Source: Candidatus Shapirobacteria bacterium (GTDB lineage: Bacteria; Patescibacteriota; Microgenomatia; UBA12405). From it: a stretch of 64,000 nucleotides of DNA. Under the pieces are notes generated by a model that worked only from the letters and a program-made list of their open reading frames with translations, had not been told where the DNA came from and did not search any database. How positions within the stretch are numbered: the stretch's first letter is position 1; every line of letters starts with the position of its first letter. The translations under genes were made by a program, and so were the position numbers. The DNA lies in assembly GCA_018062705.1 (NCBI GenBank), contig JAGORQ010000001.1:21624-85623 (forward strand). Reading direction: 5' to 3'. Below are positions 2,495 through 57,375 of this stretch, piece by piece.

Positions 2495-4264
2495 ATGAAC
2501 AAAAAATTTTACGTTACCACCCCGATTTATTATATAAACGATGTGCCTCATATTGGGCATACCTGCACTACTGTAGTGGCTGATATTTTGGCGCGAACTC
2601 ATCGCCAGGCGGGAGACGATGTGTTTTTTTTGACGGGGACTGATGAACATGGTCAAAAGGTTGCTGAGTGTGCTGAAAAAGAAGGGTTGGACCCTCAAAC
2701 TTACTGCGATAAAATTGCCCCGACTTTTGAAACTGCTTGGAAAGATTTAAACATTAGCTATGATTATTTTATAAGGACAACAAATCCCCAACACGAAGTT
2801 GTGGTGGCAGAATTGTTGCAGAAAATTTACGATGCGGGTGATGTTTACAAGGCGAAGTATGAAGGGTATTACTGTATTGGTTGTGAGAAATTTTTGACCG
2901 AAACTGACTTGGTCGATGGACACTGCCCACTTCATCCACCGGAGAAGACAGTTAAAAAGTCGGAAGAAAACTGGTTTTTTAAATTGTCAAAGTTTGTCCC
3001 ACAAATTATAGAAATTATTGAAAAAGAAAATTATATTTTCCCGGAAGGAAAGCGAGCTGAGGTGTTGGCAAAATTGAAGGGGGGAGTGACTGACATATCA
3101 CTATCTCGAGAAAATGTGTCATGGGGGATTCCCCTACCGTGGGATAAAAAACAAACTGCGTACGTATGGTTTGATGCCTTAATTAATTACTACAGCGCCA
3201 CCCAATTTGTCGAAGGCAAAAAAGACTTTTGGCCAGCAGATTTGCATTTGCTCGGAAAAGAAATTTTGTGGTTCCACACGGTTATTTGGCAAGCAATGTT
3301 GTTGTCGGCCAAAATTGGGTTGCCAAAAAAGACATATACTCATAGTTTTTATATGATCGACGGACAAAAAATGTCTAAAAGTTTGGGTAATGTGATTAGT
3401 CCGAAACAATTAATAGACTTGTTTGGAGTTGATGGCACCAGATATTTAATCGCCCGATCGTTTCCAGCGGAAAACGATGCTGATGTCGGTATTGGTAGAT
3501 TTGTGGAAAGATATAATGCAGATTTGGCGAACAACTTGGGTAATTTGGTGTCGAGAGTGTGTAAACTCGCAATCAAAATCCCCCTGTCTCCACCGAAGGC
3601 GGAGACCTCCCCCTTTGACGAAAGGGGGACTTATTTGGAATTAGTGAATAGTTTAAAACTGGATGAGGCGATAGGGTGGGTATTTGAAAAATTTATTGAT
3701 AAATCAAACAACAGACTAAATGAGGTGATGCCATGGAAATTGGAGGCAGATGACCCAAAAAGAATCGAGGTGTTGACTGAGTGTGTGAACAACTTAAGAC
3801 AGGTGGCATTTTATTTAAAACCAGTCATGCCTGATGTTTCTAAAAAAATAGAAGATTGTTTTGATGGTGAAGTTAAACCACTAGAAAGTTCGCTTTTTCC
3901 GCGGGTGGAAGTTCCCAAAATGGCTCCAAATTTGTTGATAAATAAAATCGTGATTGGGGAGATAAAAAATATAGAAAAATTGCCAGACAAGACAATTCAA
4001 AAAATTACGGTCGATGTAGGAACCAAAGAACTAAAAATTGTTTGTGGAGATTTAAGTCTAAAAGTTGGCGAAAAAGTACCAGTGGCACTGCCGGGATCGA
4101 GGGTGAATGATGTTAATGGCGGCAAGAGAAAAATTAAAAAAGGCAAGGTTCATGGAGTCGAATCGGAAGGAATGCTGTGCTCTGGGCTGGAACTAGGGAA
4201 AAATAAAGATGGTGAATTAATTTATAGAGTTGAGGGAGTGGTGGGGGAAGAGATAAATGATTGA
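2495..4264 (+). CDS. metG: Methionyl-tRNA synthetase with a C-terminal EMAP/Trbp111-like tRNA-binding domain
   Basis: Carries the class I HIGH motif (PHIGH) and KMSKS (KMSKS) plus the LANNLGNL anticodon-domain motif. The C-terminal ~100 aa are OB-fold tRNA-binding. Confidence 0.9.
   Translation: MNKKFYVTTPIYYINDVPHIGHTCTTVVADILARTHRQAGDDVFFLTGTDEHGQKVAECAEKEGLDPQTYCDKIAPTFETAWKDLNISYDYFIRTTNPQHEVVVAELLQKIYDAGDVYKAKYEGYYCIGCEKFLTETDLVDGHCPLHPPEKTVKKSEENWFFKLSKFVPQIIEIIEKENYIFPEGKRAEVLAKLKGGVTDISLSRENVSWGIPLPWDKKQTAYVWFDALINYYSATQFVEGKKDFWPADLHLLGKEILWFHTVIWQAMLLSAKIGLPKKTYTHSFYMIDGQKMSKSLGNVISPKQLIDLFGVDGTRYLIARSFPAENDADVGIGRFVERYNADLANNLGNLVSRVCKLAIKIPLSPPKAETSPFDERGTYLELVNSLKLDEAIGWVFEKFIDKSNNRLNEVMPWKLEADDPKRIEVLTECVNNLRQVAFYLKPVMPDVSKKIEDCFDGEVKPLESSLFPRVEVPKMAPNLLINKIVIGEIKNIEKLPDKTIQKITVDVGTKELKIVCGDLSLKVGEKVPVALPGSRVNDVNGGKRKIKKGKVHGVESEGMLCSGLELGKNKDGELIYRVEGVVGEEIND
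3577..3630. repeat. Family E two-hairpin element, in-frame inside metG (encodes ~IPLSPPKAETSPFDERGT)
   Basis: aatccccctgtc-[gtctccaccgaaggcggagac]-ctccccctttgacgaaagggggac. It has the same architecture and near-identical flanks as the intergenic copies at 43497 and 46373. Confidence 0.5.
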
Positions 4265-4985
4265 TACACATTGCCACCTAAGAAACACTGAGGATATTAA
4301 AATTAAGGGCCTAGAGTTTGCGGTGTTGTCGGCAAGCAATTTGGAAGACTCAAAAGAAAATGTCAAATTACAAATGTCAAATGACAAATTAAAGGCATCG
4401 GTGGGGGTACATCCGCAAGAATTAATTACTAATTACGAATTACTAATTACTAATTTAGAAGAATTACTAAGTCAAAATAAAGAAATTGTTGCGGTAGGGG
4501 AATGTGGACTAGACTTTAGTGCCGAAAACTACGATAGACATTCTCAAGAAATTATGTTTAGGGCGCAAATTTGTTTGGCTTTGAAATATGATAAGCCGTT
4601 GATAATTCATAGTCGGAAGGCGATGGACGAAACGTTGGAAGTGTTGAAAAGTTACAAAAACTTACGAGGAGCAATTCATTGTTATAGTGGGGGAATTAAG
4701 CGAATTAAAAAAGTTTTGGAGCTACCCGGAGAGTGGTTCTTTGGTATCGATGGAAATTTAACCTATGAAGCGGGATTGCAGGAAGTAGTAAAAAATATAC
4801 CGAAGGACAGGCTAGTGCTCGAGACTGACAGTCCAGAGTTGACCCCCATCCCCCATCGGGGTGAAAAAAATTATCCGGAGTATGTAAAATTTATTTATCA
4901 AAAAGTGGCAGAGATTTGGGTGATGAGCTTGAAAGAAACTGAGGAATTGATTGATGGGAATGCGAAAAGAATTTTTGATATTTAG
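4257..4985 (+). CDS. tatD: TatD family metal-dependent DNase/hydrolase
   Basis: Has the MIDTHCHL N-terminus and other TatD His/Glu/Asp motifs. It overlaps the metG end by 8 nt. Confidence 0.8.
   Translation: MIDTHCHLRNTEDIKIKGLEFAVLSASNLEDSKENVKLQMSNDKLKASVGVHPQELITNYELLITNLEELLSQNKEIVAVGECGLDFSAENYDRHSQEIMFRAQICLALKYDKPLIIHSRKAMDETLEVLKSYKNLRGAIHCYSGGIKRIKKVLELPGEWFFGIDGNLTYEAGLQEVVKNIPKDRLVLETDSPELTPIPHRGEKNYPEYVKFIYQKVAEIWVMSLKETEELIDGNAKRIFDI
4421..4471. repeat. (TTACTAAT)n microsatellite copy inside the tatD coding sequence (encodes ELITNYELLITNLEELL)
   Basis: attaattactaattacgaattactaattactaatttagaagaattactaag. The same octamer repeat occurs at 5986 and 41565. Confidence 0.4.
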
Positions 4986-4986
4986 C

Positions 4987-5229
4987 GGGTTTGGGCAAGC
5001 CAAACCCCTACTTTACCTTGGCTGTATCGGGTTTGGGCAAGCCAAACCCCTACTTTACTTTGGCAACTTTGGGTTTGGGCAAGCCAAACCCCTACTTTAC
5101 CTTGGCTGTATCGGGTTTGGGCAAGCCAAACCCCTACTTTACCTTGGCTGTATCGGGTTTGGGCAAGCCAAACCCCTACTTTACCTTGGCTGTATCGGGT
5201 TTGGGCAAGCCAAACCCCTACTTTACTAA
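4987..5229. repeat. Tandem array of ~5.8 copies of a 42-bp REP-like unit (GGGTTTGGGCAAGCCAAACCCCTACTTTACCTTGGCTGTATC), each with a GGGTTTGG/CCAAACCC hairpin
   Basis: Exact 42-nt periodicity starting at 4987, 5029, 5071, 5113, 5155 and 5197. ORF-track entries 4951..5229 and 4991..5257 are translations of this array. Confidence 0.85.
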
Positions 5230-5231
5230 AA

Positions 5232-5711
5232 TTGTATATGCGACTTTTAAACGGTAGGCATACTATTCGACGACAAAAAGTAGATTACACAAAACCAAAT
5301 TGTTTTATGGTGACCATTTGTGCCAATAAATTTGGTTATTATTTCGAAAAATATCCAGAATTAAAAAAGATTATTGAAGATAATTTATTAAAAATTTCTG
5401 GTGACTTTGCCAATACTAGGTTAGGTGAATATGTGGTAATGCCAAACCATATCCACTTTATATTGACAATGAGATATCAAATAAAAAATGTAAGTTTGGG
5501 GAAAATTATTGCCACATTTAAATCGAGAGTCGTAACTGACTGGCTAAAAGTAATAAACGATCAAAAACTTAATTCTTTAGCAAAAATTTGGCAAAGAAAT
5601 TATCACGAACATATTATTAGAAATAAAGATGAGTTTGAAGCTTACACTAAATATATCGTTAATAATCCAAAAAATTGGCTAAATGATTCATACCACGTTT
5701 CGGTAAAGTAG
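5232..5711 (+). CDS. IS200/IS605-family Y1 HuH transposase, REP-associated tyrosine transposase (RAYT)-like
   Basis: HuH motif (PNHIHFIL), N-terminal KPNCFMVTIC motif, and C-terminal YHEHIIRN...YIVNNPKNW typical of TnpA_REP/RAYT. The gene is flanked by REP copies in inverted orientation. Confidence 0.75.
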   Translation: MYMRLLNGRHTIRRQKVDYTKPNCFMVTICANKFGYYFEKYPELKKIIEDNLLKISGDFANTRLGEYVVMPNHIHFILTMRYQIKNVSLGKIIATFKSRVVTDWLKVINDQKLNSLAKIWQRNYHEHIIRNKDEFEAYTKYIVNNPKNWLNDSYHVSVK

Positions 5712-5978: not shown

Positions 5979-5985
5979 AAAAAAA

Positions 5986-6015
5986 ATTACTAATTACTAA
6001 TTAATAATTACTAAT
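5986..6015. repeat. (TTACTAAT)n microsatellite immediately upstream of the ATG of the minus-strand gene 5736..5978
   Basis: attactaattactaattaataattactaat. Confidence 0.4.
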
Positions 6016-6022
6016 GAGAAAC

Positions 6023-7487: not shown

Positions 7488-7515
7488 TTAGAGACGCGCC
7501 ATGGTGCGTCTCTAC
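7488..7515. repeat. Family B palindrome (TTAGAGACGCGCC ATG GTGCGTCTCTAC) just 3' of the map stop
   Basis: Perfect inverted repeat. The outer GAGACGC/GCGTCTC stems are shared with 7 other copies. Confidence 0.6.
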
Positions 7516-7525
7516 GGAGAAGATA

Positions 7526-8305: not shown

Positions 8306-8402
8306 ATCGTCATTGCGAGGAGTCTTATCATACGATCCCCAAAGGGGACAGGCTACACAATCCCAACGAGATTGCCACGACCTTCGGCCTCGCAATGACG
8401 TT
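8306..8402. repeat. Family C composite element (TCGTCATTGCGAGG ... CAATCCCAACGAGATTGC ... CCTCGCAATGACG) between the deacetylase stop and the map start
   Basis: 13-bp terminal inverted repeats enclose a CCAACGAGATTGC module that is shared with 38199, 54715 and 57268. Confidence 0.5.
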
Positions 8403-15531: not shown

Positions 15532-15559
15532 GTAGAGACGTTGCGCGCAACGTCTCTAC
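15532..15559. repeat. Family B palindrome (GTAGAGACGTTGCGCGCAACGTCTCTAC) between convergent genes; possible bidirectional terminator
   Basis: Perfect palindrome 12 nt after the DEAD helicase stop, followed by an A-run on + and a T-rich stretch on -. Confidence 0.55.
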
Positions 15560-15571
15560 AAAAAAATATCA

Positions 15572-27619: not shown

Positions 27620-27677
27620 AAATTATTTCGGGCGCCAGCAACCTGCCTACCGGCAGGCAGGGTGTCGCCCCTACGGA

Positions 27678-29503: not shown

Positions 29504-30397
29504 ATCGTGGTGGAAGATTACTTTGCCAAGAGCTAGAGTCATGGGACGGTTTTTCATGGAGTCAAGAATTATTTTATTTAAATTATCGCGGTACTCAGCG
29601 GTGTCGGCAGACTCAAAATCGGGAATTAGTTCGGGGGAATTTTTTTGAAGATACTCGTAAAGTCGGGTTTTGATTTTGGAACTTTGATTGAGATGTTCAA
29701 ACCAAACTTCGGAAACTCCGGCATGCTGGAGCGCATCGAGCAATTCATTAATGGCTTTTTTATTATTGACAAAATGTGGCAGAATTGGACCGACAAAGGC
29801 GTAAGTGGAAACACCATTATCGTGTAATTGTTTTAGTGCTTCAATGCGAGCAGAAATAGGTGGTGCTAGAGGTTCGAGAAAGCGAGCCACTTGGTCGTCG
29901 AGTGTGGTGACAGTAAAACCAACTTGAACTTTTTTTAATTTTTTTAAAATATCAATATCTTGAGTAACCAAGGGTGATTTTGTTTGAATGCCAATTGCTC
30001 CTTCATAACCAAAATCAACAAAAACTTGAAGACATTGGCGGGTGATATGGTATTTGGCTTCGAGACCGGTGTAGGGGTCGGTGACCGAACTAAAAAAGAT
30101 AAAACCAAAATCTTTTGATGATTTAATTTTATTTTGGTGTGTAGAGACGCCAGGCCTGGCGTCTCTACGAGACAGCTTGTTTAATTCATTTTTTAATAAT
30201 TCAGGCGCGTTGGTTTTGACATCTAAATAACTCCCCCACTCTTCATCGGGGTGATGCCAGCGGGCTATTTGGGCGGCATAGCAGTACGTGCAACCGAGCT
30301 GGCAACCGCCGTAGGAATTAACTACCCAATCGGCACCAGGCAGACCGGATTTGGTGAGGATTGTTTTGGCGGTAATTTCGTTAATTTTGAGGAGCAT
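29486..30397 (-). CDS. Radical SAM protein of the spore-photoproduct-lyase/DNA-photolyase-like (SplB) type, carrying an in-frame family B palindrome insert
   Basis: The CxxxCxxC cluster (CQLGCTYC) near the N-terminus and the overall architecture fit SplB-like rSAM. Residues SRRDARPGVST are encoded by the palindrome at 30141..30168. Confidence 0.55.
   Translation of the reverse strand: MLLKINEITAKTILTKSGLPGADWVVNSYGGCQLGCTYCYAAQIARWHHPDEEWGSYLDVKTNAPELLKNELNKLSRRDARPGVSTHQNKIKSSKDFGFIFFSSVTDPYTGLEAKYHITRQCLQVFVDFGYEGAIGIQTKSPLVTQDIDILKKLKKVQVGFTVTTLDDQVARFLEPLAPPISARIEALKQLHDNGVSTYAFVGPILPHFVNNKKAINELLDALQHAGVSEVWFEHLNQSSKIKTRLYEYLQKNSPELIPDFESADTAEYRDNLNKIILDSMKNRPMTLALGKVIFHHDLPKKR
30141..30168. 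repeat. Family B palindrome (GTAGAGACGCCAGGCCTGGCGTCTCTAC) in-frame inside the radical SAM gene
   Basis: Perfect 28-nt palindrome. The minus-strand reading frame passes through it without a stop. Confidence 0.6.
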
Positions 30398-31588
30398 TTA
30401 TTTTTTGGTAGTTTTGTTAATATAATACTTTTTATTTTTAACTTTATCGGGTAGTAACGATTCGGTGGTGTATTTTTCATACCCTTTGCCGTAGCCGAGG
30501 TCTTTCATCAGATCGGTAGGAGAATTGCGTAAATTCATCGGAATAGGCAAGTTTCCATAGGTCTTGATATCCGCTTGGGCTAAGCGGAGGCCGTCGTAGG
30601 CGGAGCGGTTTTTGGGGGAGAGGGCCAGATAGGTAACCCCATGGGCCAGGTTGATGGCACATTCAGGATAACCAATTTGGGTGACAGCTTGAAAGACTTG
30701 GTTGGCCAACATTAAGGCAGAAGAGTTGGCTACTCCAATATCTTCGGAGGCAAAAATCACCATCCGCCGGGCAATAAACTTGGGGTCCTCCCCCGCTTCA
30801 ACCATCCGTGCCAAGTAATAAAGAGCCGCATCGGGATTTGAGGCACGCATACTTTTAATGAAGGCACTAATAGTGTTGTAGTGTTCCTCGCCTTTTTTGT
30901 CGAAACGTAAATAAGAATTTTGGAGAGTGGATTTGAGAGTGTCGATAGTGATTTTTTGGTAGAGAGTAAAGGCGTTGTCCAACATGGTGATGGCTTGGCG
31001 GGCATCACCGTTGGCCATTTGAATTAGCCAATCTTTGGCTTTTTTGTCAATCCCCCCTTTAGTCCCCCCTTTGACAAGGGGGGAAAGAATATCTATACAG
31101 CGTTTTATTATTTGACCCATTTCATCGTCGGATAATTCTTTGAGAACAAAGACACGGCAGCGGGATAATAATGGAGAAATGACCTCGAAACTGGGATTTT
31201 CGGTGGTGGCACCGATGAGAGTTAGTAGACCTGATTCAACATAAGGCAGGAGAAAATCTTGTTGGGCTTTGTTGAAGCGATGAATTTCGTCTAAAAATAA
31301 TATTTTTTTGTTGAGGCCGGGCTGACCTGACCCAATAATTTTTTTGATATCGTCTTTACTAGCAGAAACAGCTGATAACTCATATAAATCGGCCTGGGAT
31401 TCGTGGGCAATAATTTTGGCGAGAGTAGTTTTACCCACACCGGGTGGGCCCCAAAAAATCATCGAGAAAATCTGATGATTGTCGATAGCCATTTTTAGAG
31501 GCTTCCCCTCCCCGACTAAATGAGTTTGGCCGACAAAGTCGGCTAGGGATTTTGGTCTTAATAGTGAAGCTAAAGGTTGAGTTAACAT
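30398..31588 (-). CDS. rarA: Replication-associated recombination protein A (AAA+ ATPase MgsA/RarA)
   Basis: Walker A (GPPGVGKTT), Walker B ([10 protein letters not shown]), and the characteristic C-terminal MgsA helical domain. Confidence 0.85.
31049..31090. repeat. Degenerate family E-like hairpin (AATCCCCCCTTTAGTCCCCCCTTTGACAAGGGGGGAAAG) in-frame in rarA (encodes ~[14 protein letters not shown])
   Basis: Shares AATCCC...CCCCCTTTGA(C/A)(G/A)AAGGGGG with family E copies. Confidence 0.3.
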
Positions 31589-38198: not shown

Positions 38199-38346
38199 CG
38201 TCATTGCGATCCGCCAGTTGGCGGAGTGGCAATCCCAACGAGATTGCTTCGTCCCCTTCGGCTACGCTCAGGGTCCTCGCAATGACCCTTCGACTTCGCT
38301 CACAATCCTCGTTATAACCCTTCGACTTCGCTCAGGGTTATAACGT
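38199..38346. repeat. Family C composite element in a divergent promoter region; includes a duplicated CTTCGACTTCGCTCA(G/C) submodule
   Basis: gtcattgcga...ggcaatcccaacgagattgcttcg...cctcgcaatgacc, then two copies of cttcgacttcgctca. Confidence 0.5.
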
Positions 38347-38351
38347 ATTAT

Positions 38352-41557: not shown

Positions 41558-41564
41558 GTGTTTT

Positions 41565-41598
41565 TAATTACTAATTACTAATTACTAATTACTAATTT
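41565..41598. repeat. (TTACTAAT)n microsatellite in the divergent promoter region between the rluB-like gene and the nuclease gene
   Basis: taattactaattactaattactaattactaattt. Confidence 0.4.
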
Positions 41599-42900: not shown

Positions 42901-43494
42901 TCCTAGTTGTGGTGCTTCAACTTTTTTGGGATAGGAAAAGTCGACCGGAAAGGTGCGGATAGTGTTCCATTTGTCCATGAATTTTAGTTGCTTGTTTTTG
43001 AGGCCAAAATCGTAGACTTCCTTGGTAACCTGGACATCAGCTTCGCAATATTTTTTTAATTTGGCAAGCGATTCGGCCGAGTGCTCCGCCCAATACTTAA
43101 CAGCGTTGAGACCATGATCGATTTTGGTGTGGCCGAGGGTTTCGGCGGCCAAATTCCCCAGACCAATTCTAAAACCGAGTGATAATTTAATCGGATCCAT
43201 TAGGTCAAAATGATTTAATTTTTTAAAATCATAAGGAGCTAGCGGAGCCATGGCCGGCACATCAAAATGAAGAGAATTGAAACCAATTATCCGATCGACA
43301 TTGGTAAATATTGGCCACATTTTGGGAAAATCTTCTTCCCAAAAACTCATCATTTGTCCATCGATTTCATTTAGATTATCGTCGAGAGTGCGTTTGAAAA
43401 CAGAGATAATGGAGATACCCAAATCGGCCGGATCGCCAGTGGCGATATCGTCAAATATTTTTTTGGTTTCGATGTCAAAAAAAACTTCAATCAT
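42892..43494 (-). CDS. DEDDh-type 3'-5' exonuclease (DnaQ-like fold)
   Basis: FDIET (Exo I), HFDVP (Exo II), and H...D in the C-terminal block. Confidence 0.5.
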   Translation of the reverse strand: MIEVFFDIETKKIFDDIATGDPADLGISIISVFKRTLDDNLNEIDGQMMSFWEEDFPKMWPIFTNVDRIIGFNSLHFDVPAMAPLAPYDFKKLNHFDLMDPIKLSLGFRIGLGNLAAETLGHTKIDHGLNAVKYWAEHSAESLAKLKKYCEADVQVTKEVYDFGLKNKQLKFMDKWNTIRTFPVDFSYPKKVEAPQLGLF

Positions 43495-43496
43495 AA

Positions 43497-43549
43497 ATCC
43501 CTCTGTCCTGCGGTCGCCGGACCTCTCCCTTTGAAGAAAGGGAGAAATA
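43497..43549. repeat. Family E two-hairpin element immediately 5' of the exonuclease ATG
   Basis: aatccctctgtc-[ctgcggtcgccggac]-ctctccctttgaagaaagggagaaataac. Confidence 0.55.
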
Positions 43550-43575
43550 ACTAAATACGTAGAGAGAAGATTATA

Positions 43576-44139
43576 TTAGAAACCGAGATCTTGTTCAACA
43601 AAGAGGATATGAGTGCGGGAGGCAACAGGTTCTTTATTGAGAATTAAAAGCTTATTAACACCACTGTGAACACCATAAGCTTTCAAGGCCCTAGCATCTT
43701 CAAGAGGTAGTACAACATCATAAATTCTCTTGAGAGCTGCGGTCAAGTCACCACTAATTTTTTTGGTGCTGACTACAAAAATAACTTTTTTGGCGCCAAA
43801 AACATACGCCGGAAGTTGGCTACCAGTAGCTGAGGCAATGACTAATTCGCCAGTTTCAGTGACCGCATGAACACTACCAATAGCAATATCTGGCAGGGAG
43901 GCTAAGTGGCGGGCTTCAGCATCGCCGGCATAAAACTTGGGTTTGATGGCATCATATTTGCCCGACTCATTAATTTCTTGGGAAATTCCTAACTGGTCGA
44001 GAGTGGTGGAAGACATGGTCATAACTTGACTACCTTCGGGAATTAACTCATGAATTTTTTTGATGACATCATCACTACTAACACTAACCGACACCTCAAA
44101 ACCATTATTTTTGAGATTTGAAATTAAATCTTGATTCAT
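43576..44139 (-). CDS. LUD-domain protein (YkgG/LutC family, DUF162)
   Basis: Pattern of conserved Gly-rich segments (IAIGSVHAVTETGELVIASATGS). Confidence 0.5.
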   Translation of the reverse strand: MNQDLISNLKNNGFEVSVSVSSDDVIKKIHELIPEGSQVMTMSSTTLDQLGISQEINESGKYDAIKPKFYAGDAEARHLASLPDIAIGSVHAVTETGELVIASATGSQLPAYVFGAKKVIFVVSTKKISGDLTAALKRIYDVVLPLEDARALKAYGVHSGVNKLLILNKEPVASRTHILFVEQDLGF

Positions 44140-44191
44140 TTTTTATAATAAATTTTAACTACTACAACTGTAGTATTAGTTAAGACAAATG

Positions 44192-45415
44192 TCAAGAGAT
44201 GTTGCCGAAGCCAATAGCGTCATGAACAGCTTCGCCCAGGCCCAGCATTTTGGCTGGAGTGAGAACGAAACTACCGTATTTTTGGGTAACTTTATCAATG
44301 GCTAAATTTAGATTGATATGTTTTTTGATGTCACCAAATAGATCGAGTTGGAGGCTATTGTTTTGCGATAAATTGAAAAAAGTGACGGCTAAATTGGCCA
44401 CCGGAGAATGGTAAGGGGAGGATGACATAATTTTGTAAGCTCGACGATAGAGGTGGTAATCATCGGAAACTGGTTCGGGGTAAATAGCGCCGTGATGCCA
44501 AAACTGACGGTCGCGATAGAGTAGTGAAATATGGACACCACTGGCGGTATAACCATGACTTCTGAGGCGAAGACCGGCTTTGACAACTAGTTTGTGGAGA
44601 ATGGGTGAGAGTTCCTCGGGGGTACTAAGTGGTTTGGGGAGTGAATACATATGACCAAAACTTTTGCGGGCAAAATCAACATTATCAATTTCTAGGCCTC
44701 GAAGACGAAGATACCAATAATAGCCGTTAATGGAGTTAAAGGCATGATGGAGAATGTGGATTGGGGCATTATAAAAATCCATAACTGAAAAAATACCTGA
44801 GTGGTGAAGGTGGGTGGCGTTAGCTCGGGCAATACCAGTCAGATCGGTGAGTTCAAGTTTTTGATAAATTTCTAAATAGTTTTTGGAATTTATTTCATCT
44901 AGACCATCGGGCTTGTGAAGATTACTAGCAGTTTTGGCCAAAAAACGGTTTGGACCAATACCAACCGAGACAGTTAGCCAATCCCCGATTTCACTTTTTA
45001 TTTTTGACTTTATTTCTCGACCTATAAGGTGCAGGCCAATTTTGAGGCCGGGAAAATTTTGAAAATTAAGAGAAAATTCATCAATAGATTTGGCGGTATA
45101 GTCGGCAGTATAGTAGCTTAATAATTTGTGGAGTTTATGGTGGACAAAACGATATTTGTCGGGATCGGAAGTGAGAACAATTAAGTTGGGACAAAGCTTT
45201 TTGGCCTCAAAGATGCGAAAACCGGTTTTGATGCCGAGGGCTTTGGCCTCGACTGAAGGAGCAAGAATGCAACCGCGAGGACTGTCGTAGGCGGCCACAG
45301 CGATCGGCCGACCACGGAGGAGTGGATTAGCCTGTTGCTCGATCCGAGCAAAACAGGAATTTAAATCGACGTGCATAAAAGTCGATTGACATTGATTAAA
45401 ATCGAGATTAATCAT
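44192..45415 (-). CDS. dinB: DNA polymerase IV (Y-family)
   Basis: MHVDLNSCFARIEQ N-terminus and the ImpB/UmuC core motifs. Confidence 0.9.
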   Translation of the reverse strand: MINLDFNQCQSTFMHVDLNSCFARIEQQANPLLRGRPIAVAAYDSPRGCILAPSVEAKALGIKTGFRIFEAKKLCPNLIVLTSDPDKYRFVHHKLHKLLSYYTADYTAKSIDEFSLNFQNFPGLKIGLHLIGREIKSKIKSEIGDWLTVSVGIGPNRFLAKTASNLHKPDGLDEINSKNYLEIYQKLELTDLTGIARANATHLHHSGIFSVMDFYNAPIHILHHAFNSINGYYWYLRLRGLEIDNVDFARKSFGHMYSLPKPLSTPEELSPILHKLVVKAGLRLRSHGYTASGVHISLLYRDRQFWHHGAIYPEPVSDDYHLYRRAYKIMSSSPYHSPVANLAVTFFNLSQNNSLQLDLFGDIKKHINLNLAIDKVTQKYGSFVLTPAKMLGLGEAVHDAIGFGNIS

Positions 45416-45653
45416 TGGAGACTTCTTGGAGTTCCCAAAATAAATTGTCAGTGTTGAGACTTAACCGAAAAAAAGTCTGATTGGCAGTGACAGAGAAAAT
45501 GTGGAACAGAGTCTGCCCGCGACGGATAGTATGGTGGAGACCGATTTGAGAAACGGTGTAATCTACTCCACGCCAAAAAAATTTACGCGGACCAACCCGA
45601 TTGGTGGCGGAGTCGAAACTAGAGATGACAGAGATGGGAATTTTTAACTGCAT
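45408..45653 (-). CDS. Small hypothetical protein overlapping the dinB start by 8 nt
   Basis: 81-aa ORF translationally coupled to dinB. Confidence 0.35.
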   Translation of the reverse strand: MQLKIPISVISSFDSATNRVGPRKFFWRGVDYTVSQIGLHHTIRRGQTLFHIFSVTANQTFFRLSLNTDNLFWELQEVSND

Positions 45654-45698
45654 GATTTAAGAAGTAAGATTTAAGATGTATGAATAAAACAAAAAAAC
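45654..45698. repeat. Family D element abutting the start codon of the minus-strand small gene
   Basis: gatttaagaagtaagatttaagatgtatgaataaaacaaaaaaac. Confidence 0.55.
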
Positions 45699-45705
45699 AT
45701 AGGTC

Positions 45706-45735
45706 ATTCCCGCGGAGGCGGGAATCTAATTTTTT
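45706..45735 (+). terminator. 8-bp GC hairpin (ATTCCCGC GGAG GCGGGAAT) plus T-run; terminator-like with no obvious upstream + gene
   Basis: A similar hairpin attcccgccttcgcgggaat occurs at 7389..7408. Confidence 0.3.
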
Positions 45736-45737
45736 AA

Positions 45738-45805
45738 ATCTCCCTCGGCTGCGCCGCATCCCTCATCTCTGCTGAGACATCTTCGACTTTGATGAAAGAG
45801 GGACT
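45738..45805. repeat. Divergent family E-like element
   Basis: aaatctccctcggctgcgccgcatccctcatctctgctgagacatcttcgactttgatgaaagagggact. Confidence 0.3.
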
Positions 45806-46024
45806 ATAAGGTAAATTTATACTATACCGAAGAAAAGCCGAAGTCAAGAGATATTAGATTTCAAAAACTTTGAAAATATACAATAAGTACGAAACATATG
45901 AGGATAAGTAATACTATCTTAGTTGCACAAACTAAAAAAGAGGTATAATACCTGCTGTAGAGAAGTTTCTGTCAAGCAAAGTTAGTTGAAAAGAGGTCGC
46001 TACAGATTATTAATTTTTACTAAA

Positions 46025-46372
46025 ATGGTAAAAAAATTGTATGTCGGCGGCTTGTCATTTTCGACAACTGATGACACTTTGAGAGCGGCATTCGCTCAAG
46101 CTGGAACCGTCGTTTCAGCAGTAGTTATTAAAGATAAATTCTCCGGTCAATCAAAAGGCTTTGGATTTGTGGAAATGGATTCGGAAGAGTCCGCACAAGC
46201 AGCTATTGATATGTGGAATGAGAAAGAATTGGATGGTCGCACCGTTAAGGTGAACGAGGCTCGTCCAATGGAAGAGAGACCCCCACGACGTGATAATTAC
46301 TCTCGTGGTCCTAGCCGACAAGGTTTCGGTGGTGGTTCACAAGGTGGTTACGGTGGTGGTTCAAGATACTAA
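46025..46372 (+). CDS. RRM-domain RNA-binding protein with a Gly-rich C-terminal tail
   Basis: RNP-2 (LYVGGL) and RNP-1 (KGFGFVEM). The promoter TATAAT at ~45936 predicts a ~85-nt 5' UTR that contains an inverted repeat. Confidence 0.8.
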   Translation: MVKKLYVGGLSFSTTDDTLRAAFAQAGTVVSAVVIKDKFSGQSKGFGFVEMDSEESAQAAIDMWNEKELDGRTVKVNEARPMEERPPRRDNYSRGPSRQGFGGGSQGGYGGGSRY

Positions 46373-46421
46373 AATCCCTCTGTCAGCGTTGCTGACATCT
46401 CCCTTTGAAGAAAGGGAGAAC
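46373..46421. repeat. Family E two-hairpin element immediately 3' of the RRM gene stop
   Basis: aatccctctgtc-[agcgttgctgacat]-ctccctttgaagaaagggagaacc. Confidence 0.55.
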
Positions 46422-46423
46422 CT

Positions 46424-46452
46424 AAAAAAACCCGTCGCAAGACGGGTTTTTT
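46424..46452. terminator. Rho-independent terminator, bidirectional (A-run, CCCGTC GCAA GACGGG, T-run)
   Basis: aaaaaaacccgtcgcaagacgggtttttt. Confidence 0.7.
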
Positions 46453-46475
46453 GATGGATTTTAAAATGTACCCAA

Positions 46476-46501
46476 AGAGACGCATTGCAATGCGTCTCTA
46501 C
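46476..46501. repeat. Family B palindrome (AGAGACGCATTGCAATGCGTCTCTAC) overlapping the RAYT2 stop codon
   Basis: Perfect palindrome. The minus-strand TAG of RAYT2 lies inside it. Confidence 0.6.
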
Positions 46502-47040
46502 AATTTGGAAAATAATCTGTCCTTTTGCCAGTTTTTGGGGTTGTTTCTGATGTAGTATTTGATTTGAGTTAACCGTTTTTCGTCGTGAATAATTTCGTCA
46601 TAAAAACGAGGTTGCCAGGCGAAATAAATATTATGTTTTTTGCAGATGCGTTTGACGGCACCTTTGAAGGATTTGATGGTTTGGGAAATTGTTTGGATTG
46701 ATTTGGAATTTATATCTTGATAAAAATCTGGGTGGTTCCGATGGCTATGGATAAATATTGGCGTTGGGGAACTTTCGTGTAGAGACGCATGGCAATGCGT
46801 CTCTACAGGGATATCCCGAATGGTGATTAGCAGGTGAACATGGTTGGGCATGACCACCCAGGGGTTGATAATTAAAGATTTTCGAATAGAGATGGTTTTG
46901 ATTAATTCATCAACAGCAATTTGACCCCTATCCGATAATTCCATTTTTCCGTTGATAATTTTGCCAAAGAAATTGTTATGGTTGTAGGTGCAGATGGTGA
47001 TGAAGTAAAAGCCAGGTGTGGAGTAGTCCCAACCATTCAA
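46498..47040 (-). CDS. IS200/IS605-family HuH Y1 transposase (RAYT-like), second copy, carrying an in-frame family B palindrome
   Basis: YFITICTYN N-terminal motif, HuH (PNHVHLLIT), C-terminal YYIRNNPKNW. Residues VETHCHASLH are encoded by the palindrome at 46779..46806. Confidence 0.7.
   Translation of the reverse strand: MNGWDYSTPGFYFITICTYNHNNFFGKIINGKMELSDRGQIAVDELIKTISIRKSLIINPWVVMPNHVHLLITIRDIPVETHCHASLHESSPTPIFIHSHRNHPDFYQDINSKSIQTISQTIKSFKGAVKRICKKHNIYFAWQPRFYDEIIHDEKRLTQIKYYIRNNPKNWQKDRLFSKL
46779..46806. repeat. Family B palindrome (GTAGAGACGCATGGCAATGCGTCTCTAC) in-frame inside RAYT2
   Basis: Differs by 1 nt from the copy at 46476. Confidence 0.6.
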
Positions 47041-53496: not shown

Positions 53497-53522
53497 AGAG
53501 ACGTCATATATGACGTCTCTAC
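53497..53522. repeat. Family B palindrome (AGAGACGTCATATATGACGTCTCTAC)
   Basis: Perfect palindrome, intergenic. Confidence 0.6.
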
Positions 53523-53613
53523 AAAAATATTCTAGAGTCTTCGCTAAAACAAAACAAAACAAACAGAAGAGTTTAAATTGAAGATAAATACCTAGGTTTA
53601 GTTTTATGCTGAA

Positions 53614-54678: not shown

Positions 54679-54714
54679 ATGGGGTTATTTTATAACATTT
54701 ACTTTTTATTTGGA

Positions 54715-54772
54715 CTGTTCCAATTTCAACTAGATTGCCACCCTTTCGACTTTGCTCAGGATCGCAATAACG
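54715..54772. repeat. Family C module copy (CAATTTCAACTAGATTGCC...TTTCGACTTTGCTCAGGATCGCAATAACG) immediately upstream of the MBL hydrolase gene
   Basis: About 85% identical to the copy at 57268, including the adjacent start-codon-proximal sequence. Confidence 0.5.
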
Positions 54773-55057
54773 TATGTATATGAATATTGATTAACAAAGT
54801 GTAATATTAATTATGAAAGGAAAACATAAAAGGATTAGAAGAAAAGAACTAAAAGACACTACTTCGATTGGCGAATGGTCAAGAATGTTGCACAAATGGT
54901 GGAAATTGAGTGTGCTAAATAAAATTGAATTCAAGAAGAAACGGGAAGACATACAATAGTACCCGTCTTTGTTTTCTAGCTATTTTATTGATGGTGATTG
55001 ATGCCATGTCGATATCAGGAGTTTAATTAAAATCTGTGTGTTAATTGGGACGGAGCA

Positions 55058-57238: not shown

Positions 57239-57267
57239 ATTTTATAACAATTACTTTTTATTGGGCT

Positions 57268-57323
57268 GGGGAGATTCCAACGAGATTGCTTCTCCTTCGA
57301 CTTCGCTCAGGATCGCAATGACG
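57268..57323. repeat. Family C module copy (GAGATTCCAACGAGATTGCTTCTCCTTCGACTTCGCTCAGGATCGCAATGACG) upstream of the MFS gene, in a divergent promoter region
   Basis: Shares the CCAACGAGATTGC, CTTCGACTTCGCTCAGG and CGCAATGACG submodules with C1-C3. Confidence 0.5.
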
Positions 57324-57375
57324 ACTTGGTTTATTTTTTAATTCAAGAAGAAACGGGAAACTGTATAATGAAATT

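What the first reader, a model, noticed from the sequence alone, without database searches (positions are those of the whole stretch)
43497..46421. Family E: conserved two-hairpin element with a variable first hairpin and an invariant CTCCCTTTGAAGAAAGGGAGA second hairpin
E1 (43497..43549) and E2 (46373..46421) share the AATCCCTCTGTC leader and the second hairpin, but the first hairpin differs (CTGCGGTCGCCGGAC versus AGCGTTGCTGACAT) while staying self-complementary. This structure-preserving variation suggests an RNA-level function. E2 sits between the RRM-protein stop and a strong terminator (3' UTR). E1 sits between a hairpin-2 and an AGAGGGA Shine-Dalgarno-like box 4 nt from the exonuclease ATG (5' UTR). 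In-frame copies occur in metG and rarA.
Basis: seen in the sequence. Interest (0 to 1): 0.65.

Follow-up and report, generated by a model that had tools for sequence, protein, structure and literature searches.

The report
Tiny nested palindromic repeat, not riboregulator
The two-hairpin "Family E" motif is real. It behaves as a very small selfish DNA repeat that lands between genes in either direction and in frame inside essential enzymes, and the same core occurs in several bacterial phyla, so it is not a dedicated regulatory RNA.

Summary
E1 (43495-43547) and E2 (46372-46421) share a 10-nt leader and an identical 22-nt second hairpin, with different self-complementary first hairpins. There are two more copies: E3 in frame in metG, and a copy without hairpin 1 lying antisense in rarA.

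The RNA reading is only partly supported. Pairing is preserved: across 56 distinct first hairpins, 84% of inner pairs are Watson-Crick against 29% in shuffles. But the element faces either way relative to genes. E1 is antisense to its gene and E2 is sense. About 130 copies in roughly 30 assemblies show no orientation rule. G-T wobble pairs are rare. No Rfam family matches.

Copies sit in frame in MetRS, RarA, TatD, TsaD, TsaE, PheT and a ValRS-like protein. Orthologous sites in relatives are empty or hold other variants, including MetRS genes 86-92% identical in DNA.

The exact core occurs in Candidate Phyla Radiation (CPR) lineages, Dialister (at least 51 copies), several Clostridia, Margulisbacteria and a few other taxa.

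Best reading: a non-autonomous, modular palindromic mini-repeat, closest in behaviour to Rickettsia RPEs, cyanobacterial small dispersed repeats (SDRs) and REPs. It fails the REP and MITE membership tests. What mobilises it is unknown.

The parts
43495..43547 (+). E1, full copy. Leader AAATCCCTCT (43495-43504), variable hairpin 1 (43505-43522), conserved hairpin 2 (43524-43545). Lies between two minus-strand genes, so it is antisense to their transcripts. The leader's complement AGAGGGATTT abuts the ATG (43494) of the RNase_H-like exonuclease gene.
46372..46421 (+). E2, full copy. Leader 46372-46381 overlaps the last base of the RRM gene's TAA stop. Hairpin 1 is GTCAGCGTTGCTGAC (46382-46396); hairpin 2 is 46398-46419. 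Sense orientation, in the 3' UTR of the RRM gene.
3576..3630 (+). E3, full copy in frame (sense) in metG (2495-4264). Encodes IPLSPPKAETSPFDERG. Hairpin 1 is GTCTCCACCGAAGGCGGAGAC (3586-3606). Hairpin 2 is TCCCCCTTTGACGAAAGGGGGA (3608-3629), with a compensatory C:G replacing T:A.
31049..31084 (+). Copy without hairpin 1: AATCCCCCCTTTAG + TCCCCCCTTTGACAAGGGGGGA. Antisense and in frame within rarA (30398-31588, minus strand). Encodes [12 protein letters not shown] in a variable loop.
46425..46452 (+). Intrinsic-terminator-like hairpin following E2. This is context, not part of the repeat.
43570..43598 (-). Promoter-like site (TTGAAC-17-TATAAT) that would place the reverse complement of E1 in the 5' UTR of the exonuclease mRNA. 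Context only.
46498..47040 (-). Y1_Tnp (IS200-like / RAYT-like) gene 77 nt from E2. Its own REP-type hairpins (family D3) lie at 46476-46502 and, in frame, at 46781-46807. It is a candidate but unproven trans-acting enzyme for single-stranded hairpin repeats.

Best explanation
Family E is a very small (about 36-57 bp), non-autonomous, modular palindromic DNA repeat. It is selfish or dispersed DNA, not a dedicated cis-regulatory RNA.

**Anatomy**
- A C-rich leader, AAATCCCYCT.
- An optional, fast-evolving hairpin module, here GTC...GAC.
- A conserved hairpin, ATCYCCCTTT-loop-AAAGGGRGA, whose 5' arm is a near-repeat of the leader.

**Shown here**
- It is multicopy.
- It occurs in either orientation.
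- It sits between genes and, in frame, in surface-variable loops of conserved enzymes.
- It is present, absent or replaced at the same sites in close relatives.
- It nests and clusters.
- The identical core occurs in several phyla.

**Inferred**
- It is copied or moved as a single-stranded DNA hairpin by a factor acting in trans. An HUH/Y1-type enzyme is the leading candidate; the window encodes two.
- Alternatively, or in addition, it spreads by gene conversion between copies.
- It lands preferentially where an older copy or another mini-repeat already sits, which creates hot spots.
- Copies survive only where they are harmless: intergenic DNA, or reading frames without stops that add a short Pro/Ser/Gly/charged peptide.
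- Paired arms are kept because the hairpin is what is recognised or copied.

Effects on neighbouring mRNAs are incidental by-products or local co-option. At E1 the leader's complement supplies an SD-like AGAGGGA 3 nt before the exonuclease ATG. At E2 two extra hairpins sit between the stop codon and the terminator.
For: **Copies in the window.** Four copies, in four different contexts.

**Cross-genome scan.** The pattern ATCCCYCTGTC-N(4-30)-GACNTCYCCCTTTGA hit 83 stretches and 112 copies in about 30 species-representative assemblies. These are Shapirobacteria, Woesebacteria, Parcubacteria, Moranbacteria, Dialister (at least 51 copies in NZ_CP181256.1), Oscillospiraceae, Eubacterium, Ruminiclostridium, Acutalibacteraceae, Margulisbacteria, Bacteriovorax and Anaerolineaceae. 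My estimate of the chance expectation is about 0.1 hits.

**Orientation.** There is no rule. Intergenic copies: opposite to both neighbours 28, same as both 17, same/opposite 18, opposite/same 10. Copies in ORFs: antisense 28, sense 18.

**In-frame copies in conserved proteins.** MetRS and RarA in the window; TatD (two copies in L085), TsaD, TsaE, PheT-like, ValRS-like and a glycosyltransferase elsewhere.

**Site turnover**
- MetRS loop: E-like in 19 of 121 homologues. These are polyphyletic, and partners 94-97% identical outside the loop carry different content.
- At the DNA level, genes 86-92% identical carry E, sister family E', a third variant, or none, between the same flanks.
- TsaD site: E, another variant, or empty. 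A second TsaD site carries a nested insertion.
- Exonuclease 5' site: element present in 4 of about 41 orthologues.
- Exonuclease 3' site: E' leader and hairpin 2 are identical in three genomes whose flanks have diverged, with hairpin 1 changed in a compensatory way.

**Pairing and clustering**
- Hairpin 1 inner pairs are 84% Watson-Crick against 29% in shuffles (maximum 42% in 1000 shuffles); only 4% are G-T.
- Tandem and clustered copies occur.
- Other hairpin mini-repeats are indel-polymorphic between CPR contigs 95-97% identical.

**Not a known RNA.** No Rfam hit.
Against: - No mobilising enzyme was identified. No protein recurs next to copies. Y1_Tnp homologues were seen only in Shapirobacteria loci.
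- No clean filled-versus-empty pair at over 95% identity was found for E itself. No target-site duplication or exact insertion boundary could therefore be defined. What is seen is replacement of a loop segment rather than simple insertion.
- Hairpin 1 loops are strand-asymmetric: T-N-C or T-N-N-C in about half of the distinct hairpins. Some single-stranded form therefore matters, and an RNA cannot be formally excluded.
- At the exonuclease start site all four occupied orthologues have the same orientation, with the G-rich end next to the ATG. That could reflect selection on the mRNA.
- ORF calls used for the orientation statistics are naive and noisy in the GC-rich Dialister repeat arrays.
Confidence: 0.72

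Rival explanations
1. E is a substrate of the genome's REP-associated Y1 (RAYT / IS200-like) transposases. On this view it is a REP-type element cut and pasted as single-stranded DNA by the enzymes encoded at 46498-47040 and 5232-5711.
For: - Two Y1_Tnp genes lie in the window, one of them 77 nt from E2.
- Hairpin structure is conserved through compensatory change, as expected for HUH enzymes that read single-stranded DNA hairpins.
- On the complementary strand, hairpin 1 loops read C(GNA)G or GNNA. From my own knowledge, this is the classic hyper-stable DNA mini-hairpin loop.
- No target-site duplication is visible, consistent with IS200/IS605-type chemistry.
Against: - E lacks the GTAG/GTGG tetranucleotide that flanks REP hairpins. 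A different family in the same window, D3 (AGAGACG...CGTCTCTACA, which reads GTAG + hairpin on the other strand), has it and is the one that abuts and even interrupts the RAYT gene.
- E copies are single units, not inverted doublets (REPINs).
- E is common inside genes, whereas REPs are extragenic.
- No Y1_Tnp homologue was found in 83 E-bearing loci from other genomes. That sample is only about 8 kb per locus, so this point is weak.
Confidence: 0.2
2. This is the first reader's view: E is a structured cis-acting RNA element, in a 5' or 3' UTR, whose two hairpins act on mRNA stability, termination or translation. The variable first hairpin is maintained by selection on RNA pairing.
For: - Strong covariation in both hairpins.
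- E2 lies between a stop codon and a terminator. The complement of E1 lies in a predicted 5' UTR with its G-rich end at Shine-Dalgarno distance.
- Related elements occupy the same 5' position, in the same orientation, in three orthologous loci: L088, L092 and L106.
- The hairpin 2 arms resemble an anti-SD/SD duplex (CCYCCCUUU / AAAGGGRGG-like). This is my inference from the sequence.
Against: - E1 and E2 are transcribed in opposite senses.
- Orientation across about 130 copies shows no rule.
- Many copies are inside ORFs in both senses.
- No association with any gene class.
- Almost no G-U pairs.
- No Rfam match.
- About 37 of 41 exonuclease orthologues do without it.
Confidence: 0.12
3. E does not transpose. 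It spreads and is homogenised by homologous recombination or gene conversion, possibly helped by biased DNA uptake as with uptake signal sequences. The same loci therefore exchange alleles with and without the element among relatives.
For: - Segments are replaced between fixed flanks, with no target-site duplication.
- Leader and hairpin 2 are identical across genomes whose flanks have diverged.
- The distribution at the MetRS hot spot is polyphyletic.
- Both orientations occur and coding positions are tolerated, as for uptake sequences.
Against: - Density is low, at 4 copies per 64 kb.
- The architecture is complex, with a hypervariable module that an uptake signal would not need.
- The same core occurs in unrelated phyla and habitats.
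- New copies appear in unrelated genes in different genomes, which requires some non-homologous insertion step.
Confidence: 0.1

Closest known systems
Rickettsia palindromic elements (RPE; Ogata et al. 2000, as summarised in PMC10969869)
   Same: Both are palindromic selfish repeats inserted in frame into unrelated housekeeping genes as well as intergenic DNA. Both add a short peptide that the host protein tolerates.
   Different: RPEs are about 100-150 bp, confined to Rickettsia and unrelated in sequence. E is 36-57 bp and modular, with an optional variable hairpin. It is found in CPR, Firmicutes and other phyla, in both coding orientations.
Cyanobacterial small dispersed repeats (SDR; Elhai et al. 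2008, Genome Res 18:1484). I could not open this paper; the comparison is from memory. It is cited in PMC3116915.
   Same: Both are very small hairpin repeats with compensatory changes. Both show nested insertions, association with heptamer tandem repeats, mobility between close genomes, and an unknown mobilising machinery. In relatives, the MetRS site that holds E is filled by an (AATTACG)n tract.
   Different: The sequences and hosts differ. SDRs are 21-27 nt. Frequent in-frame residence in essential enzymes and cross-phylum identity were not, to my knowledge, reported for SDRs.
REP / REPIN elements mobilised by RAYT Y1 transposases (PMC3116915)
   Same: Both are short palindromes present in many copies. 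Both cluster into mosaics, and hairpin structure is conserved. RAYT-like genes are present in the same genome.
   Different: E has no flanking GTAG/GTGG, no inverted-doublet organisation, and is not restricted to extragenic DNA. The window's true REP family is D3, not E.
Bacterial MITEs (Correia, ERIC, BOX, Nezha and others; review PMC10969869)
   Same: Both are non-autonomous and dispersed. E has short imperfect terminal inverted symmetry (ATCCCYCT ... AGGGRGAT). Both occasionally fuse with ORFs and can donate regulatory signals.
   Different: E is smaller than nearly all MITEs. No target-site duplication was seen, and no parent IS with matching ends was found near any copy.

Membership tests
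REP/REPIN (RAYT-associated) | Conserved GTAG/GTGG tetranucleotide immediately 5' of the palindrome | tested here: not met
   No GTAG or CTAC adjoins either hairpin in any of the four window copies or in the 112 external copies. The D3 family in the same window does have it.
REP/REPIN (RAYT-associated) | Extragenic location and inverted doublets (REPINs) | tested here: not met
   Two of the four window copies, and many external copies, lie inside ORFs. Copies are single or in direct tandem.
REP/REPIN (RAYT-associated) | Cognate RAYT gene flanked by copies of the repeat | tested here: inconclusive
   E2 is 77 nt from a Y1_Tnp gene, but D3 hairpins are the immediate flank. No Y1_Tnp was found in 83 E-bearing loci of other genomes.
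MITE | Terminal inverted repeats plus target-site duplication | tested here: not met
   There is only 7-8 nt of imperfect terminal symmetry. No duplication appears at the MetRS, TsaD or ValRS-like filled-versus-other sites. The comparisons are between diverged genomes, so short duplications could have been erased.
MITE | Parent insertion sequence with the same ends | tested here: not met
   No recurrent protein-coding neighbour among 831 ORFs in 83 loci. No match in plasmids, and a single match in 2.9 million viral contigs.
Rickettsia palindromic elements | Palindromic repeat inserted in frame in unrelated protein genes | tested here: met
   Found in MetRS, RarA, TatD, TsaD, TsaE, PheT-like and ValRS-like proteins.
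Rickettsia palindromic elements | About 100-150 bp consensus families of Rickettsia | tested here: not met
   E is 36-57 bp and its hosts are CPR, Firmicutes and others.
Cyanobacterial SDR-type mini-elements | Hairpin with compensatory changes, nesting, link to heptamer tracts, mobility between close genomes | tested here: met
   See (covariation; nested insert in L055; heptamer tract at the same MetRS site; turnover). Sequence homology to the SDR families could not be tested because the paper and its sequences are not held.
Curated structured RNA family (Rfam) | Match to a covariance model; constant orientation and gene association | tested here: not met
   No hit at gathering score or at E<=10. 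Orientation shows no rule.
Intrinsic terminator | GC-rich hairpin followed directly by a U-run | tested here: not met
   Hairpin 2 is followed by AAT.../ACCTAAAAAAA. The real terminator after E2 is a separate hairpin at 46425-46452.

The most novel reading that the evidence does not exclude
E and its sister variants could represent an undescribed class of ultra-small, modular mobile DNA with three unusual properties:
- It homes to sites already occupied by a mini-repeat, giving cassette-like replacement inside essential genes.
- It carries a hypervariable nested hairpin.
- Its core is shared nearly base for base between CPR bacteria and gut Firmicutes.

Together these would imply a mobilising or copying machinery, or a universal host factor, that has not yet been recognised.
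Probability: 0.25. Interest if true: 0.75.

Novelty: new variant of a known kind. Interest (0 to 1): 0.5.

Why it matters
**Annotation.** Motifs like this will be mis-called as riboregulators, or will give rise to spurious 'conserved peptides' (IPLSP..SPFD.RG, SPLVKGG..GGI). This matters most in CPR genomes, where they sit inside aminoacyl-tRNA synthetases and tRNA-modification enzymes.

**Biology.** Streamlined CPR genomes tolerate, and rapidly turn over, selfish mini-repeats within essential genes at recurrent hot spots. The same roughly 45-nt core is shared across phyla. How repeats shorter than 60 bp move is a long-standing open question. The hot spots found here (the MetRS loop, the TsaD loop, the exonuclease start and stop) give concrete, testable loci.

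Tried and rejected
- **Rfam.** A gathering-score scan of the whole window, and E<=10 scans of 43400-46550 and of a Dialister array, found nothing for E.
- **Literature.** Full-text searches for the nucleotide strings and for the encoded peptides found nothing relevant. No paper links CPR with REP or MITE elements. The Elhai 2008 SDR paper is not held.
- **Source contig.** An exact-protein look-up of the window's exonuclease found no record. MetRS places the window in Candidatus Shapirobacteria, with the best relative only 78% identical.
- **Plasmids and viruses.** No plasmid match and one viral match, so no evident vector.
- **Linked gene.** Clustering of 831 neighbouring ORFs gave no recurrent family. 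A phmmer search with both window RAYTs hit only Shapirobacteria loci.
- **UNCG tetraloop reading of hairpin 1.** Rejected. The stems pair right up to 3-nt T-N-C loops, so the register does not fit C(UNCG)G.
- **E1 and E2 as the ends of a 2.9-kb cassette (LUD-DinB-RRM).** Rejected. DinB-exonuclease synteny exists in relatives without E.
- **Covariance model.** Not built. MAFFT misaligned the variable-length hairpins, so I did anchored pair counting in Python instead.
- **Recent E insertions.** A search between near-identical contigs found indels of other mini-repeats but none of E.
Full report
**1. The observation**

The sequence is as described.
- E1 is AAATCCCTCT | GTCCTGCGGTCGCCGGAC | C | TCTCCCTTTGAAGAAAGGGAGA, at 43495-43545.
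- E2 is AAATCCCTCT | GTCAGCGTTGCTGAC | A | TCTCCCTTTGAAGAAAGGGAGA, at 46372-46419.

The 21-mer of hairpin 2 has two exact matches and one 3-mismatch match in the window. Shuffles gave zero expected matches.

Scanning found a third full copy, E3 (3576-3630). Its hairpin 2 carries a compensatory T>C / A>G change. A fourth copy, 31049-31084, lacks hairpin 1. Relaxed searches found no more.

All copies fold into two adjacent hairpins on either strand, with z-scores from -2.6 to -5.3.

**2. Context in the window**

The organism is a Candidatus Shapirobacteria (CPR). Its MetRS is at most 78% identical to anything in the database.

- E2 follows the stop codon of an RRM-protein gene, in sense orientation. 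A separate terminator hairpin follows it at 46425-46452.
- E1 lies between two minus-strand genes, one encoding a LUD-domain protein and one an RNase_H-fold exonuclease. Those transcripts therefore contain E1's reverse complement. The 'SD-like AGAGGGA' is the complement of E1's own leader, 3 nt from the ATG. A TTGAAC-17-TATAAT site upstream makes a 5' UTR plausible.
- E3 is in frame and sense in metG, encoding IPLSPPKAETSPFDERG.
- The fourth copy is in frame but antisense in rarA, encoding [12 protein letters not shown]. Both coding copies lie in regions that vary in solved homologues.

So four copies occupy four different kinds of site and both orientations.

**3. Beyond the window**

I scanned one representative genome per species (185,579 species) for ATCCCYCTGTC-N(4-30)-GACNTCYCCCTTTGA. 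The scan returned 83 stretches and 112 copies from about 30 assemblies. My estimate of the chance expectation is about 0.1 hits.

The hosts are:
- Shapirobacteria, Woesebacteria, Parcubacteria and Moranbacteria.
- Dialister, with at least 51 copies in the 2.94-Mb chromosome NZ_CP181256.1.
- Oscillospiraceae, Eubacterium, Ruminiclostridium and Acutalibacteraceae.
- Margulisbacteria, and one MAG each of Bacteriovorax and Anaerolineaceae.

Seven MAGs labelled 'uncultured Gammaproteobacteria' have 31-42% GC. Four of them (L017, L026, L052, L061) encode proteins 43-76% identical to those in Shapirobacteria or Woesebacteria loci, so the seven are probably mislabelled CPR.

The element is nearly absent from viral contigs (1 hit) and absent from plasmids. 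Rfam has nothing like it. Full-text searches for the nucleotide or peptide strings found nothing.

**4. Structure statistics**

Hairpin 1:
- I found 56-60 distinct first hairpins.
- Inside the fixed GTC/GAC, 84% of possible pairs are Watson-Crick. Shuffles averaged 29%, with a maximum of 42% in 1000.
- All four Watson-Crick types occur at the first variable pair (AT 16, TA 11, GC 13, CG 8).
- G-T pairs make up only 4% and are strand-symmetric.

Hairpin 2: T:A and C:G covary, with 30 T:A, most of the rest C:G, and 4 mixed.

Pairing is therefore clearly maintained. The near-absence of wobble pairs, and several fully palindromic centres such as CCGAAAGCTTTCGG, fit a DNA palindrome better than a selected RNA helix.

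The loops are strand-biased. About half of the distinct hairpins have T-N-C or T-N-N-C loops. On the complementary strand these read C(GNA)G or GNNA, which from my own knowledge is the classic stable DNA mini-hairpin loop. I take this as a hint that a single-stranded DNA form of that strand matters. It does not fit the UNCG register.

**5. Orientation and location**

Relative to naive ORF calls, the orientation of about 130 copies shows no rule. In CPR loci, where long ORFs are trustworthy, copies sit in frame, sense or antisense, in TsaE, TsaD, PheT-like, ValRS-like, glycosyltransferase and other proteins. Two sit in the TatD gene of L085.

This is the behaviour described for Rickettsia palindromic elements (PMC10969869).

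**6. Turnover at orthologous sites**

- *MetRS.* The loop holding E3 is hypervariable among Shapirobacteria.
  - A sizeable minority of homologues (25 of 121 by a peptide-motif count) carry I-TNYELRI-DD. In L086 this is the literal translation of an (AATTACG)n heptamer tract.
  - Nineteen of the 121 carry E-like peptides, and these are polyphyletic.
  - Partners 94-97% identical outside the loop differ completely within it.
  - At the DNA level, four genes 86-92% identical carry E, the sister family E' (AACCCCTCA-hairpin-GCTCCCCTTGATGAAAGGGAGC), a third variant, or none. In each case the content lies between the same flanks, GAAGGA| ... |TWYATAAA.
- *TsaD.* One site carries E in L055 and another variant in L026, and is empty in L051. 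A second site holds a copy without hairpin 1 in L026 and the same copy with a nested insert in L055.
- *Exonuclease start.* Four of about 41 orthologues carry a [hairpin + G-rich repeat of its 3' arm] element in the same orientation next to the ATG. Each has its own sequence variant.
- *Exonuclease stop.* Three genomes carry E' directly after TAA. Leader and hairpin 2 are identical although the flanks have diverged. Hairpin 1 changes in a compensatory way, from CTCCG...CGGAG to GTCCG...CGGAC.
- *ValRS-like protein.* In L017 an antisense copy sits beside what looks like a decayed sense copy that is retained in L051.

Copies also form tandem arrays with a 52-nt period (L036), clusters (L058), and mosaics with other hairpin modules of the same architecture in Dialister. 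Other hairpin mini-repeats are indel-polymorphic between CPR contigs 95-97% identical.

**7. Interpretation**

The data fit a non-autonomous, modular palindromic mini-repeat. It is gained, lost, replaced and homogenised on short timescales. It tends to recur at sites that already hold a mini-repeat. It persists only where it is harmless.

Shown:
- copy multiplicity and both orientations;
- in-frame residence in coding sequences;
- site turnover, nesting and clustering;
- the cross-phylum core.

Inferred:
- a single-stranded DNA hairpin intermediate;
- a trans-acting enzyme.

The window encodes two Y1_Tnp (RAYT-like) proteins, one of them 77 nt from E2. But the classical REP of that gene is family D3, which has GTAG + hairpin and even interrupts the RAYT ORF in frame. 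E lacks GTAG, is not extragenic and does not form doublets. I therefore rate a RAYT link at about 0.2.

No recurrent neighbouring gene was found. Replacement without a target duplication leaves gene conversion as a serious contributor.

**8. The RNA hypothesis**

It is not excluded locally. The complement of E1 would place two hairpins and an SD-like box in the exonuclease 5' UTR. Three orthologous loci have analogous elements in the same orientation. E2 adds two hairpins just after a stop codon.

As a general explanation, however, it fails on orientation, coding residence, lack of gene association, the wobble statistics and turnover. I put it at 0.12.

**9. Comparison with known families**

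- E works most like RPEs (in-frame palindromic selfish DNA) and cyanobacterial SDRs (tiny, nested, hairpin-forming, linked to heptamer tracts, unknown machinery).
- It fails the REP tests (GTAG, extragenic location, doublets) and the MITE tests (target duplication, parent IS).
- It is not an Rfam family or a terminator.

I rate it a new variant of a known kind.

**10. Unexplained**

- Why the leader and hairpin 2 are conserved almost base for base between groundwater CPR and gut Firmicutes, while sister variants diverge freely among close Shapirobacteria.
- Why the leader is always a near-repeat of the 5' arm of hairpin 2.
- Why the arms resemble an anti-SD/SD duplex.
- What creates the hot spots.

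Noticed in passing
window 7490-7516, 15534-15560, 30143-30169, 46476-46502, 46781-46807, 53497-53523: Family D3, AGAGACG-[variable perfect palindrome]-CGTCTCTACR. On the other strand it reads GTAG + hairpin, so it looks like a classical REP. One copy abuts the 3' end of the Y1_Tnp/RAYT gene. Another sits in frame inside that gene, encoding VETHCHASL.
   Followed up: partly
window 5232-5711 (+) and 4941-5268: A second Y1_Tnp (RAYT-like) ORF, 4.7e-63 to the L086 Y1_Tnp, lies just downstream of TatD as in L086. It is preceded and overlapped by a 42-bp tandem repeat of six copies.
   Followed up: partly
window 4422-4456, 5983-6017, 41564-41598; L086 MetRS loop: Tandem heptamer tracts (AATTACT/G)n. 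One lies inside TatD and encodes ITNYELLITN, which is conserved in two orthologues. The same tract fills the MetRS loop (ITNYELRI) in many relatives, at the site where the window has E3.
   Followed up: partly
window 21532, 23818, 24546, 32910, 39430, 45649 (about 65 nt each): Family D2, AGATTTAAGATTTAAGATGTATGA..., made of heptamer-like AAGATTT tracts at six sites. One lies upstream of the RRM gene. They could be promoter-region repeats.
   Followed up: no
window 8358-8382, 38230-38349, 54704-54773, 57255-57324: Another dispersed family, CAATCCCAACGAGATTGC...CCCTTCGACTTCGCTCAGGGT, including three tandem 32-nt units at 38254-38349.
   Followed up: no
L008, L017, L026, L052, L061, L064, L073: These MAGs are titled 'uncultured Gammaproteobacteria' and have 31-42% GC. 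Four of them (L017, L026, L052, L061) encode proteins 43-76% identical to those of Shapirobacteria or Woesebacteria loci. They are probably mislabelled CPR genomes.
   Followed up: partly
L020 1-2100 (Dialister NZ_CP181256.1): Non-coding mosaic arrays, with units of about 265 and 360 nt, built from several hairpin modules. One is a second two-hairpin module of the same architecture but different sequence: AACCTCCGTC-GCCTTCGGC-GCCACCTCCTTCCCAAGGAAGGAGG, a literal anti-SD/SD hairpin. This chromosome is about 1 Mb larger than typical Dialister genomes (PMC7283042 lists 1.89-1.96 Mb).
   Followed up: partly
L036 1840-2095; L058 3500-3670: A tandem array of E with a 52-nt period in a Ruminiclostridium MAG, partly masked by Ns. 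A run of four hairpin elements, two simple and two E, in a Moranbacteria contig.
   Followed up: no
L131 vs L133; L126 vs L129: CPR contigs 91-97% identical (L131/L133) or over 99% identical (L126/L129) differ by 47-91-bp indels. The L131/L133 indels are hairpin mini-repeats (for example AATCCACGGCCTAAAGGCCGTGGCTTT), and the 75-bp L126/L129 indel is an 8-mer tandem tract (GATATTNN). This is direct evidence that such mini-repeats are currently dynamic.
   Followed up: no
window 27641-27662: A GC-rich nested palindrome, GGGGCGACA-CCCTGCCTGCCGGTAGGCAGG-TTGCTGGCGCCC. It resembles the sequence occupying the E' site in L090.
   Followed up: no
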